Part shown: in pieces, positions 19,838 to 27,495 of the stretch
Position numbering within the stretch: position 1 is the first letter of the stretch
How the letters are laid out: each line of letters starts with the position of its first letter
Source: Eledone cirrhosa
Taxonomy: Eukaryota
Assembly (NCBI GenBank): GCA_964016885.1
Contig: OZ024741.1
Coordinates: 369,706,001 to 369,770,000 of the forward strand
Length of the DNA: 64,000 nucleotides
Reading direction: 5' to 3'
The notes under the pieces: generated by a model
Seen by the model: only the letters and a program-made list of their open reading frames with translations
Told to the model about the DNA's origin: nothing
Database searches by the model: none
Translations under genes and position numbers: made by a program

Positions 19838-20768
19838 TATTATATTATATTTAGAGTTATAAACTCAAACAGTCCTTTACAATTAATTAGCTCAAAGAAA
19901 GAAGCATTTCTGAGCCGTGAAATACAAGTTAATATAAATTAATATATGATAAACACATAAGTGTTTGTATTGTAAATGACCAAGTTAGCTAGAATGAAAT
20001 ATACTAATTAAAATAAATATAGTTTGCCTGTCTCGATTTAAAATAATAAATCAATAAAAACAAACCCATATTGGCAATAACCGTGTTTTTATTGATTTAT
20101 TATTTTAAATCGAGACAGGCAAACTATATTTATTTTAATTAGTATATTTCATTCTAGCTAACTTGGTCATTTACAATACAAACACTTATGTGTTTATCAT
20201 ATATTAATTTATATTAACTTGTATTTCACGGCTCAGAAATGCTTCTTTCTTTGAGCTAATTAATTGTAAAGGACTGTTTGAGTTTATAACTCTAAATATA
20301 ATATAATATTGCGGCTCCTTTTGTTGAGCTAAATTTTAATCCCATATAAACGGCTGTTATTTCTAGCACCATGAGTATGGGGATAGCTAGTGAGCTGGAA
20401 AACCACGTGCGTTAGCGCTTGTACACCAGACCTCCAAAAATATTTCGAGGTGAAACATCCTAATTTTCTGGATACCTGTTGATGAACACAGAAAATGGAA
20501 TCTTTCACTTTTTTATACTATCGTTGCGAAACTTATTTGGGTTTTGAAATTTAAATTTGTCTGCGGAACAGGTTTGGATTTTGAAATTTAAATTTGTCCA
20601 GGTATCACGGTTATTGCCAATATGGGTTTGTTTTTAATGATTTATTATTTTAAATCGAGACAGGCAAACTATATTTATTTTAATTAGTATATTTCATTCT
20701 AGCTAACTTGGTCATTTACAATACAAACACTTATGTGTTTATCATATATTAATTTATATTAACTTGTA
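19838..20768 (+). mobile_element. Family B HHR unit with 5' inverted arm (19838-20085) and terminal redundancy
   Basis: 19838-20061 is the reverse complement of 20084-20309; 20084-20223 repeats at 20629-20768; homologous to 8091-8722. Confidence 0.8.
20471..20606 (+). ncRNA. Type I HHR (family B) with a 37-bp duplication of the stem III module
   Basis: GATACCTG-TTGATGA..TGC-GAAAC..GTC (duplicated 20525-61 / 20562-98)-CAGGTATC; perfect 8-bp stem I. Confidence 0.7.
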
Positions 20769-20838
20769 TATATATATATATATATATATATATATAGTTT
20801 TGCGAGGTTTTTTATATGAAATCGTGTGTCGAAACAAA

Positions 20839-21146
20839 TATTGTTATACTTTGGGAGGGTCATATTTGTGTAATAATATTGCCAGAATTAATAACATAAT
20901 AGCACCACTGACAATGTGGCATATGTGCAACGAAAGAACTTTGTTAGACTATGTATATGTGTTTGTGTCTATATTATATCTGTATTTTTGACCGTTGGTC
21001 AGTCAATGGTAACATTGAGGAGCGAATAAATAAAATTAACCGATGTAAAAGACACAGAAGCGAAAACCAACCAAACAGTGAGTGTGTTCTGTTATTAATT
21101 CTGGCAATATTATTACACAAATATGACCCTCCCCATGTATAACAAT
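20839..21146. mobile_element. Inverted pair of family A-related pseudo-LTR tips
   Basis: 20840-20896 is the reverse complement of about 21090-21146; matches 6336-6450. Confidence 0.75.
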
Positions 21147-21969
21147 ATATATATATATATATATATATATATATATATATATATATATATATATATATAT
21201 ATATATATATATATATATATATATATATATATATATATATGTGTGTGTGTGTGTGTGTATATATATATATATATATATATATATATATATATATATTTAT
21301 GTGTGTGTGTGTGTATATATATATATATATATATATATATTAATATCAATATATCATCTACTACTTTTTCACATACACACATAGATAAACCACTGCCTCC
21401 CAGCACACAAACCACTCCCACCCCACACAAAGTGGCATTCGCACTTTACCATATCCAAGTAAAATTTAAATATACATTGCTCTCAGCTCTTTCTCACTTT
21501 CTCCCTCTCTCTCTCTATATATATGTGTGTGTGTATATATATATATATATATATATATATATATATATATATATATATATATATATATATATATATATAT
21601 ATATATATATATATATATATATATGTATATATATATATGCATGTATATATATGTATATATATGTTATGTATATATATACGTATATATATATTGTTTTAAT
21701 AAAGATGAGATTCTACAGGACTATTTCATTCTTTATACTCTGCTATGTATTGAGTACCTTACTTACTGTGGTTACCTCCGATTCAACCCGGAATAACTTA
21801 CCTTATATATACACACACACACACACACACACACACACACACACACATATATATATATATATATATATATATATATATATATATATAAATGTAAGTATGT
21901 ATGTATACGTACATACATATATGTATACAGACGTACAGTAGCATGCATATATATATATATATATATATA

Positions 21970-22800
21970 TAAAATATTAAAAGAATAATGAATAAAACAA
22001 TGAAACAGTTCCTTATATTAAACAAAAAAAGTTCATTATTTAACGATCGTTTCTAGGATATATATGTGTTAGAATTGGCATGCATATTCAACAGATCTAT
22101 GTACAAAATTATACAAAATTATACAAACTATCAAGATTAAATATACATACCAAACACACATATATGCCGTCTTCAGAAATAATGAAATATATTTATTGAT
22201 AATAACAACAATTCAAAATTTCAGGTCCGTTTGGGAACGGAGTTCAAATTGACCAATGAAAATACAAAAAATTTTATGCAGTTTGGTGTGTGTATATACA
22301 TGTAATTAACTTCGTACATATATTTATATAAAGATATATGCTCACATGCATACGCATGCCAAAAAGATGTATGCAAATACAAAAATTCAAGGCTAATGTC
22401 TCTGTAAGTTTATAATCCACAGATAAAATGCGTATAGACACATAAATATGAAATAAATGTATACACACATTCACATACTCACACATACTCGTACACTCAC
22501 ACACACACGCGCGTATATGCATAAACATACACATAATTACGAACATACATACACACACACATCCCCACACACATATATATATGTGCATATAGTACTATCA
22601 TAAGCATATGGACACTAATGTACGCACATAAACACTGCCACACACACTCAGATCAAGATACAGAAATTAGGTGGGAGGGGGGGAGAGGTCAGTATTCAAC
22701 GGTTTCGGCAGACTGCTTATTTATAGATGTATCTATAAACTTAGAAATAAAAAGAAAAGAAAAAAAAGGAAAAGAAAAAAGAAAAAAGAAATATATCAAG
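21970..22800 (-). mobile_element. Non-coding PLE-type 3' region, family E, copy 1
   Basis: Collinear with about 39250-40000; contains an HHR; ends in (TA)n. Confidence 0.75.
22032..22186 (-). ncRNA. HHR with 116-nt stem II extension (family E)
   Basis: Minus strand: TTCATTATTT-CTGAAGA-[116 nt hairpin]-GAAA-CGATCG-TT-AAATAATGAA. Confidence 0.8.
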
Positions 22801-23489
22801 GAAATATATATATATATATATATATATATATATATATATATATATATATATATACATCTATACATACAACAAACACACACACACATATATAAACATATAC
22901 ATATATATATATATACACATATATACACACATACATATATATATACACACATATATACACATATATACACACACATATATATACACACACATATATATAT
23001 ATACACGCACATATACATACACACAAATATATATATATAGAAACAAGCAAAATATAAAGTATACATCGATATACATACATATAGACATATAAATAAATAC
23101 ACACGCATACACACACATACATATACATACATATACATACACATATATATAAACACATACATATACATACATATACATACACATACCATATAAATACACA
23201 TACACATACACAGCCGCATACATATAGAGACACATACATATACACATATAAATACATAGACACATACATACATAAACACATATATATATATATATATATA
23301 TATATATATATATATATATATATTTTTTTACACACATATACACATACACGCATACATACATATATATATATATATACATATACACACATATATACACATA
23401 TATATATATATATATACATATACATATATAGACACATATACATATACACACGCATATATATATATATATATATATATATATATATATAC

Positions 23490-24108
23490 ATACAGGTACA
23501 CATATATATATGTACGTATCAGTTTAGCGGACGTTTATTATAACGCCCGTTTGTTTACAAACGGACGAAGCGGGCGTTATAATAAACGTCCGCTAAACTG
23601 ATACGTACATATATATATGTGTACCTGTATGTATATATATATATATATATATATATATATATATATATGCATGCTACTGTACGTCTGTATACATATATGT
23701 ATGTACGTATACATACATATTTACATTTAAGTTAGTGCCGTACTAAGAGTGAGAAATGAAATTTCGTTTCATTCTATTACAACTTATCCTTTTCGGTGCG
23801 CCTGGCCGACTGAACTCACTCGATATGCAAATTAGGCTGCTCAGCCGTTAATTTTCATAAGGAAAGTATTTACTTTCGAACGTTCATCCATCTGGCAGAA
23901 GGGTATACGGTGCTGATGATAGCTAAGAAGCTTCAAACTAGTACATCGTTCCTGTGTCTGTGTTGAACAAAAAAGGTGACGTGGTTGCCTTAACACCGTA
24001 CGGCATAAATCAGGCTGTCCGTTTGTTTACAAACGGACAAAGTGGGCGTTATAATAAACGTCCGCTAAACTGATACGTACATATATATATGTGTACCTGT
24101 ATGTATAT
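23490..24108 (+). mobile_element. Non-coding HHR unit, family C (retrozyme candidate), period 472 bp, with 5' inverted arm
   Basis: 23549-23635 repeats at 24021-24108; 23490-23549 is the inverted arm; HHR at 23907-23949 (GAAA mutated to CAAA); octamer ATGCAAAT at 23825-23832. Confidence 0.8.
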
Positions 24109-26543: not shown

Positions 26544-26553
26544 TAGCATGCAT
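24964..26553 (-). CDS. PLE RT plus GIY-YIG endonuclease, N-truncated
   Basis: Motifs [75 protein letters not shown]. The listed Met comes from flanking sequence. Confidence 0.92.
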
Positions 26554-26639
26554 ATATATATATATATATATATATATATATATATATATATATATATATA
26601 TATATATATATATATATATATATATATATATATATATAT

Positions 26640-26760
26640 ATGCATGCTACTGTACGTCTGTATACATATATGTATGTACGTATACATACATACTTACATT
26701 TAAGTAAGTGCCGCACTAAGAGTGAGAAATGAAATTTCGTTTCATTCTATTACAACTTAT
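26640..26760 (+). mobile_element. Family C fragment (another lies on the minus strand at about 21885-21950)
   Basis: Near-identical to about 23668-23787. Confidence 0.85.
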
Positions 26761-27045
26761 ATATATATATATATATATACGTATATGTATGTATTTGTAT
26801 ATATTAATTTATAACTCTATAAAGTTAAGGCTCTCTAATACGTAAATATCTCAATGAAAGGAGAATATATATATATAAAAGAAAATTTCGCTCTACATGG
26901 CTGAATACAATAAATGTAATCTGAGTTTTTCGAATATTAATAATAACATTCGATTTGTTTGCAATTATGCAAACAAGCCTCAATTTTATAGCCATGTCAG
27001 TAGAATGAACACTTCATTCTTGCTCTTATGTTGGCATGCGAACAG

Positions 27046-27093
27046 AACTGCAGACACTAATGTTTCTGGGTATTACCCTTCATCAGTACAGCT
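27046..27093 (-). ncRNA. Type I HHR (family D)
   Basis: Minus strand: AGCTGTA-CTGATGA-A-GGGT aat ACCC-A-GAAA-CATTAGTG-TC-TGCAGTT. Confidence 0.85.
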
Positions 27094-27495
27094 CACTGTT
27101 CACCTGCCAAACTGTCAGAGCTAGTGAAAATATATGCTATTTTCAAAAATACACAGTGACTGATCGGCCTGATTTGCATATTAGCAGACTTGCTGATCAG
27201 TCAGATCTGCATATTAGTAGAATCCATTGATCAGCCAGATTTGCATTTCAGCAGACTGGCCAGTTAGTTACCTGTATACGAGCGATAAATGGCCGGCTTT
27301 GCCAAATTCAAATAAAAAAGAAAATTTTGCTCTACATGGCTGAATAGAATAAATGTAATCTGAGATTTTCGAATATTAATAATAACATTCGATTTGTTTA
27401 CAATTATGCAGACAAGCCTCAATTTTGTAGCCATGTCAGTAGAATGAACATTTCAATCTTGCTCTTGTGTTGGCATGCGAACAGTTTGGCAGGTG

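What the first reader, a model, noticed from the sequence alone, without database searches (positions are those of the whole stretch)
19838..27484. Two inserts from different families both start about 7 nt after the predicted ribozyme cut
Seen: the family B minus-strand arm starts at 20085 with CACGGTTATT, equivalent to 20606, while cleavage is predicted after 20598. The family D minus-strand copy starts at 27484 with CTGTTCGCATG, equivalent to 27749, while cleavage is predicted after 27741. In both cases 7 nt of the 3' strand of stem I are missing, and the sequence then switches to the opposite strand through 2-4 nt of microhomology. Inference: the template RNA began at the HHR cut, or RT stalled at stem I, which would be a genomic footprint of in vivo ribozyme folding or activity. 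Only two cases, and microhomology blurs the junctions.
Basis: partly seen in the sequence, partly recalled or inferred. Interest (0 to 1): 0.7.

Follow-up and report, generated by a model that had tools for sequence, protein, structure and literature searches.

The report
Ribozyme-cut footprint fails one of two
Two head-to-head insertions of ribozyme-bearing jumping repeats each have an arm starting 8 bases after the predicted self-cut site, but in one the missing uncut ribozyme sits right next door, flipped, and the other is a single case that chance can explain, so this is likely ordinary Penelope-type insertion rather than a shown record of RNA cutting.

Summary
The coordinates are right: both minus-strand arms start at +8 from a predicted hammerhead cut, with 2- and 4-nt microhomology. 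The shared cause is not supported. In family D the 'missing' part (-58 to +7, the whole uncut hammerhead) lies directly beside the arm at 27485-27543, flipped between CAG and CTG; flipped back, it aligns continuously across the cut. That template did not begin at the cut. Family B (arms at +8 and +33, 224 of 224 identical) fits run-off from a cut RNA, but is 1 of 10 inserts mapped in the window; 2 of 20 arm starts at +1..+11 has P 0.07-0.17, and 15 copies span their cut. Whole-genome contigs show no depth step at either cut (ratios 0.79-0.94) and no listed pile-up there; this test is weak. One more B joint near +12 turned up in another sample. Best reading: ordinary two-ended Penelope-type insertions in (TA)n; B is about even odds between chance and a real cut or pause footprint. 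The scan has already noted cut-site pile-ups on other DNA (e1-8816740, e1-8622231; unchecked here).

The parts
19804..19837 (.). (TA)n target, left of the B insert
19838..20085 (-). B left arm, from +8 to about +256 relative to the predicted cut; ends in the 88-nt tail
   Evidence: 224 of 224 identical to the right arm
20084..20085 (.). TG microhomology at the B head-to-head joint
20086..20309 (+). B right arm, 3' part of the upstream unit, starting at +33 (+31 with microhomology)
20310..20766 (+). B right arm, next unit of the 545-nt repeat, read through its hammerhead and ending at +168 in (TA)n
20471..20606 (+). B type I hammerhead motif: 8-bp stem I (20471-20478 with 20599-20606), core UUGAUGA at 20479 (U3 variant), long G-U-rich stem III, predicted cut after 20598
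   Evidence: stem I pair T-A here is C-G in the old copy near 8334
20767..20796 (.). (TA)n target, right of the B insert
26792..27311 (-). D left arm, piece D1 plus 60 nt upstream; full hammerhead (core 27086, predicted cut after 27053), ends in the tail at about +289
27312..27484 (-). D2: the arm named in the finding, +8 to +180, from a more diverged unit (10 and 13 differences in 173 nt to D1 and D4; D1-D4 differ at 5)
27481..27484 (.). ACAG microhomology at the D2/D3 joint
27485..27543 (+). D3: 59-nt flipped piece, -58 to +7, holding the whole hammerhead with an intact cut site (core 27503, cut after 27536), a 7-nt deletion and 2 substitutions; bounded by CAG and CTG
27544..28030 (+). D4: right arm from -197 to about +289; CTG microhomology at 27544-27546; hammerhead core 27708, predicted cut after 27741; tail 27955-28035 homologous to the B tail
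8087..8720 (-). older B copy (about 74% identical), 5' end at +102, spans its cut

Best explanation
Both inserts are head-to-head copies of non-coding hammerhead-bearing repeats in (TA)n, likely written by a Penelope-type reverse transcriptase from both sides of a DNA nick and joined through 2-4 nt of microhomology, and their +8 starts likely have no shared cause. Shown: arm layout, joints, microhomologies, read-through of intact cut sites. Inferred for D (about 0.85): the enzyme copied through an uncut or re-ligated hammerhead to about -62, and the last 59 nt were flipped between CAG and CTG while the joint formed, which creates a false 'start' at +8. Inferred for B: two cDNA ends, or one cDNA that folded back, met at +8 and +33. 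I take this as one draw from widely spread 5' ends (about 0.45), only slightly ahead of run-off at a real cut (0.4) and a pause at stem I (0.15).
For: D3 flipped back aligns continuously with D2 from -62 to +180. D3 ends at +7..+10 exactly where D2 starts at +8..+11. D2 and D3 both carry many private changes (9-10 in 173 nt; 2 substitutions and a deletion in 59 nt) while D1 has 3 in 378. 18 of 20 arm starts in the window lie elsewhere, from -263 to +102. 15 copies of 5 families span their cut. Contig depth after/before the cut is 0.85-0.90 for D and 0.79-0.94 for B in 3 runs of one sample. No listed loose end or joint lies at +1..+11 among 24 of 1387 loose-end rows for D or among the 18 X1-X3 rows shown for B (24 of 211 rows shown in all). 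In 13,439 restriction-site reads, D copies run from +18 toward the cut, and depth does not fall upstream of it. For an anole Penelope element, hammerhead mutants insert normally in vitro and no RNA-seq reads began at the cut (PMC11167929).
Against: +8 is the last pair of an 8-bp inner stem I in both families. One of 16 contigs laid from sample X4 shows a second B head-to-head joint starting at about +12. Both B arms start within 33 nt after the cut. The family-wide test is weak: the tables are cut, only 2 joints and 5 spacer rows were listed for B, the window's own B joint was not recovered, contigs drop rare variants, and the restriction site at +14..+19 blinds the raw reads to +1..+14 in D. 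The tidy flip does not explain why one breakpoint is at +8. Re-ligation can restore a cut site (PMC7229834), so spanning copies do not show that the RNA is never cut.
Confidence: 0.5

Rival explanations
1. B alone is a real footprint: the template was a linear RNA whose 5' end was made by the upstream hammerhead, both cDNAs ran off that end, and 7 and 32 nt were lost in microhomology joining. D is unrelated.
For: B arms at +8 and +33; second joint near +12 in X4; B has a long stem III that could work as a monomer; animal retrozyme RNAs occur as linear cut monomers in vivo (PMC7229834); R2 5' junctions track a ribozyme cut (PMC3774820).
Against: 1 of 10 window inserts, P about 0.2; other B arm starts seen are +102, +46/+113, +110/+136 (the last two pairs lie near or in a hairpin-rich stretch and are single contigs); no depth step; this core has U3 opposite G8 and A10.1 opposite C11.1, and the right arm reads through it uncut.
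Confidence: 0.3
2. One cause for both: the enzyme pauses at the outer edge of the 8-bp inner stem I (+8..+10), cut or uncut. In B the paused cDNA end was joined or folded back. In D the second cDNA end (also ending CAG) took over on the same RNA at +8..+10, copied the uncut hammerhead to -62, and then annealed to the first cDNA by ACAG/CTGT.
For: Both breakpoints sit on the last pair of the inner stem I; explains in one step why D3 ends where D2 starts and why the flip touches the main joint; X4 joint near +12.
Against: 15 copies read through stem I; none of the 8 other inserts stops there; the D breakpoints are equally explained by the short inverted repeat; no peak listed in contigs.
Confidence: 0.15
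3. One reading: D2 ran off a cut RNA, and D3 was copied separately from the downstream unit by fold-back.
For: D2 comes from a different, more diverged unit than D1 and D4; its 3' join to the next piece may also be a jump.
Against: Needs D3 to end by chance within a few bases of where D2 starts (about 1-2% by my estimate); D3's load of private changes fits D2's unit somewhat better than D1's.
Confidence: 0.05

Closest known systems
Endonuclease-positive Penelope-like element insertions (Craig et al. 2021, PMC8557442, passages read; Frangieh et al. 2024, PMC11167929, parts 1-2 of 4 read)
   Same: Partial tandem, inverted 5'-truncated copy at the 5' end, extra tail on one arm, AT-rich target, hammerhead in the repeat; both target strands are nicked and extended in vitro.
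   Different: B and D encode no protein here; the B tail is 88 nt, not 30-40; no partner ORF was linked to either family.
Metazoan non-LTR retrozymes (Cervera and de la Pena 2020, PMC7229834, passages read; Li et al. 2026, 10.64898/2026.07.22.740005, parts 1-2 of 5 read)
   Same: Short non-coding unit (545 nt in B) with a type I hammerhead motif, head-to-tail, low GC.
   Different: Only 1.25 units and one hammerhead in the B arm; RNA, cleavage and circles untested; the unit length of D is not settled.
R2 retrotransposon 5' junctions set by an HDV-like ribozyme (Eickbush et al. 2013, PMC3774820, abstract and section 10 read)
   Same: The precedent for reading a ribozyme cut from genomic 5' junctions.
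   Different: R2's ribozyme is at the element's 5' end and full-length junctions track the cut; here most 5' ends lie elsewhere and most copies span the cut.
Snap-back junctions of R2-protein insertions (PMC11331408, passages read)
   Same: A cDNA 3' end primes on nearby DNA before the joint forms; would give near-symmetric palindromes like B.
   Different: Rare class in an engineered system; here near-symmetry is the rule (7 of 9 head-to-head inserts).

Membership tests
Type I hammerhead ribozyme | Core CUGANGA / GAAA / NUH in order | tested here: met
   D: CUGAUGA, GAAA, GUC in three copies
Type I hammerhead ribozyme | C3-G8 pair and G10.1-C11.1 pair in family B | tested here: inconclusive
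   B copy has U3 and A10.1; a contig of depth 164 matches 20438-20525 with no difference, so a subfamily shares them; numbering is recalled
Type I hammerhead ribozyme | Stems I-III around the core | tested here: inconclusive
   Stem I forms in B and D (z -4.3, -2.6, -3.8); B lacks stem II and D mispairs the core in the lowest-energy fold; one compensatory pair in B stem I
Type I hammerhead ribozyme | Match to an Rfam hammerhead model | tested here: not met
   0 hits at gathering score in 64 kb; none among 145 matches at E<=10 in 19800-28100
Type I hammerhead ribozyme | Self-cleavage | not testable with these tools
   needs an in vitro assay
Penelope-type insertion product | Inverted 5'-truncated copy next to a partial tandem | tested here: met
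   B and D
Penelope-type insertion product | Tail on one arm (two start sites); AT-rich target | tested here: met
   B arms end at +256 and +168 in (TA)n; D family ends at +143/+148, window arms at +289
Autonomous Penelope-like element | Own RT plus GIY-YIG ORF | tested here: not met
   No such ORF within B or D; the RT/GIY-YIG ORFs of the window are not joined to B or D repeats
Non-LTR retrozyme | At least two consecutive units each with a complete hammerhead (Li et al. definition) | tested here: not met
   At this locus B has one hammerhead in 1.25 units; D has two in tandem only after flipping D3 back; other loci not seen
Non-LTR retrozyme | Linear and circular monomer RNA in vivo | not testable with these tools
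   no suitable run (see Tried and rejected)
Ribozyme-defined 5' junction (R2 type) | 5' ends pile up at the cut | tested here: inconclusive
   Not a main end in D or B contigs; a minor class of 5-15% cannot be excluded

The most novel reading that the evidence does not exclude
Penelope reverse transcriptase pauses at the outer edge of hammerhead stem I, cut or not, and at that pause the enzyme can hand the same RNA to the second DNA end. The D insert would be a snapshot of that primer swap, and +8..+10 a genome-wide joint hot spot recording ribozyme folding in the germ line.
Probability: 0.15. Interest if true: 0.65.

Novelty: new member of a known kind. Interest (0 to 1): 0.3.

Why it matters
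Whether the hammerhead of Penelope-like elements cuts the RNA that gets inserted is open: the 2014 report says in vivo evidence is absent (PMC4209133) and the 2024 reconstitution found the cut dispensable (PMC11167929). A pile-up of genomic 5' ends at the cut would be in vivo evidence. This window does not supply it. It does supply a warning for such counts: short flips at head-to-head joints mimic a start at the cut and must be filtered out.

Tried and rejected
No whole genome is held, so the assembly-wide count could not be run. Run search: no RNA holder listed. Metagenome scan with a D motif: 6 of 6 hits match only 19 nt and are chance. Rfam gave only microsatellite-driven noise. A strict hammerhead scan missed B and D; a looser one gave 9 rows, some probably chance, e.g. 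58406 and 58616. Raw reads X10 are double-digest reads starting at +15/+18, so their joints (15 of 143 rows shown; arms at +16 to +129 and -192 to -15) cannot test +1..+14. I rejected the idea that the 90 nt shared beyond D1 and D4 is duplicated flank: it is homologous to the B tail (0 of 500 shuffles). I rejected the idea that B's 40-nt internal repeat breaks stem III: it folds as a long hairpin. The single difference between B units (20637) is private (family T in over 99.9% of depth), so B cannot tell a circle from a linear tandem. Look-ups of earlier findings by place, by B and D sequence and by relatives gave nothing. Paper searches listed no report of Penelope 5' ends piling up at the hammerhead cut; the library lacks most subscription papers and I read no supplements (Fig. 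S2B of PMC11167929 bears on this).

Full report
Setting. The window is animal-type DNA rich in (TA)n with several Penelope-like ORFs: 24964-26538 (-) has Pfam RT and a sub-threshold GIY-YIG match, 11008-13338 (+) has RT, and 53163-55285 (-) has sub-threshold matches to both. At least five families of short repeats carry hammerhead-like motifs (A-E). Positions below are relative to the predicted cut (+1 is the first base after it).

Observation. For B the motif has its core at 20479 and cut after 20598; the minus arm starts at 20085, equal to 20606 (+8), with 2 nt of microhomology. For D the core is at 27708 and the cut after 27741; the minus piece D2 starts at 27484, equal to 27749 (+8), with 4 nt of microhomology. 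A descriptor of core plus 8-bp stem I hits each insert once and 0 of 1000 doublet shuffles. Rfam hammerhead models do not match. Activity is untested.

Family D. The bases after the joint are not an unrelated arm. 27485-27543 is the stretch -58 to +7 of the same family, with the full core and an intact cut site, bounded by CAG on the left and CTG on the right. Reversed in place, it aligns continuously with D2 against copy D1 from -62 to +180. D3 ends at +7..+10 and D2 starts at +8..+11. D1 and D4 share rare letters at 27576 and 27766; D2 has the family letter at 27766 and differs from D1 and D4 at 10 and 13 of 173 sites, against 5 between D1 and D4. D3 has 2 substitutions and a 7-nt deletion in 59 nt. 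Inference: D2 and D3 are two pieces of one older unit copied through an uncut or re-ligated hammerhead. The true arm ends of this insert are then about -62 and -197. Whether the flip came from the short inverted repeat alone or from a pause and primer swap at stem I cannot be told from one locus.

Family B. The arms are identical over 224 of 224 nt and start at +8..+10 and +31..+33. They end at +256 and at +168 of the next unit, both in (TA)n; the unit is 545 nt, and the right arm reads through the hammerhead at 20598. Two end points 88 nt apart match the two internal start sites and tail described for Penelope elements (PMC11167929, parts 1-2 of 4 read; PMC8557442, passages). Run-off from a cut RNA, a fold-back after a random stop, and a pause at the edge of stem I all give this product.

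Local background. I mapped 20 arm starts in 10 inserts: B +8, +33, +102; D +8, -62, -197; C -106, -106, -94, -94, -24, about +80; E -47, -47, -41, -30; A +76, +101, -255, -263. A diverged C-like insert at 20797-21144 and two long-spacer inverted repeats (46529-47173, 56229-58047) were left out because no cut could be placed reliably. Two of 20 fall at +1..+11, against 0.44-0.74 expected (P 0.07-0.17). Counting the longest arm per insert, with D flipped back, it is 1 of 10 (P 0.20); counting D as a hit would give P 0.02, but that picks one of its three pieces. In 7 of 9 head-to-head inserts the two arms start within 25 nt of each other, so arms are not independent. Fifteen copies span their cut.

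Family-wide test. No assembly was available. I laid contigs of three runs of one sample at 80% likeness. D (7,824-8,686 contigs a run): summed depth at +11..+36 over -28..-3 is 0.85-0.90. The listed 5' loose ends are at 27549, 27573, 27606, 27690, 27723 and 27819, several of them divergence rather than ends; none is at +1..+11 (24 of 1387 rows shown). Main 3' ends are at +143 and +148. B (519-632 contigs a run): ratio 0.79-0.94; no row at +1..+11 among the 18 shown for X1-X3; joints at +46/+113 and +110/+136. In a fourth run of another sample, 1 of 16 contigs starts at +12 (possibly +8) and is joined to the antisense tail, a second head-to-head joint near the cut. Depth is distorted by private letters in the query, tables are cut, and the window's own B joint was not recovered. 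The test excludes the cut as the main 5' end but not as a minor class.

Literature. Cervera and de la Pena 2014 (PMC4209133, parts 1-2 of 4 read) propose cutting and circularisation without in vivo evidence. Frangieh et al. 2024 found core mutants insert normally and saw no reads starting at the cut. Retrozyme RNAs do occur as cut linear and circular monomers (PMC7229834, passages). R2 gives the precedent for junctions that track a ribozyme cut (PMC3774820, abstract and section 10). Searches listed no paper showing such a pile-up for Penelope elements.

Earlier notes of this scan (unchecked AI notes, leads only) report pile-ups at the cut in one other family of this genome and in other genomes, and pile-ups at the front of the motif or at a transcription start in others. 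The idea is therefore not new to the scan, and this window adds one compatible case and one false one.

Verdict. Observation right in coordinates, wrong about the missing bases in D. Shared cause unsupported. New members of a known kind; interest 0.3.

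Noticed in passing
window 9250, 34322, 38936, 41680, 51876, 23547, 20085: In 7 of 9 head-to-head inserts both arms start within 25 nt of each other, at family-unrelated positions; points to fold-back or two cDNAs on one RNA.
   Followed up: partly
window 38635-39238 and 9123-9345: Family C palindromes turn symmetrically at -94 and -106, next to an AAGATGGCG-like motif; may mark the RNA start (motif meaning recalled, untested).
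   Followed up: partly
window 34251-34475 and 51825-52004: Family E inserts turn at -30 to -47, upstream of GAAA, so they lack the CUGANGA half of the core; the short arm ends at about +22 and the long arm at about +100.
   Followed up: partly
window 52750-56107: Penelope-like element with frameshifted ORF (53163-55692, minus), 3' and 5' family C repeats and an inverted 5' copy: family C is the terminal repeat of this element.
   Followed up: partly
window 11008-13338 (+): 777-codon open Penelope-like frame with RT match, preceded by an overlapping 412-codon frame; possibly young.
   Followed up: no
window 24964-26551: 5'-truncated Penelope-like ORF (minus) joined at its 5' end through about 3 nt of microhomology to a short family A piece.
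   Followed up: no
window 27955-28035 and 20215-20309: The tails of families B and D are homologous (0 of 500 shuffles), so they may share a mobilising enzyme.
   Followed up: partly
window 20527-20598: B stem III is predicted as a hairpin of about 27 pairs, rich in G-U, built from a 40-nt repeat; other subfamilies have a short stem III (old copy at 8342; X4 contig skipping 67 nt).
   Followed up: partly
window 23482-24130, 41615-42120: Family A unit (about 470 nt) carries a (TA)n tract inside the repeat and a minimal hammerhead motif (cores 23913, 41891).
   Followed up: partly
window 56229-58047 and 46529-47173: Long inverted repeats (515 nt at 99.6%; 210 nt at 98%) with unique spacers; class not determined.
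   Followed up: no
window 7970-8003: Short plus-strand B tail fragment facing the old minus-strand B copy across a (TA)n tract, tail to tail.
   Followed up: no
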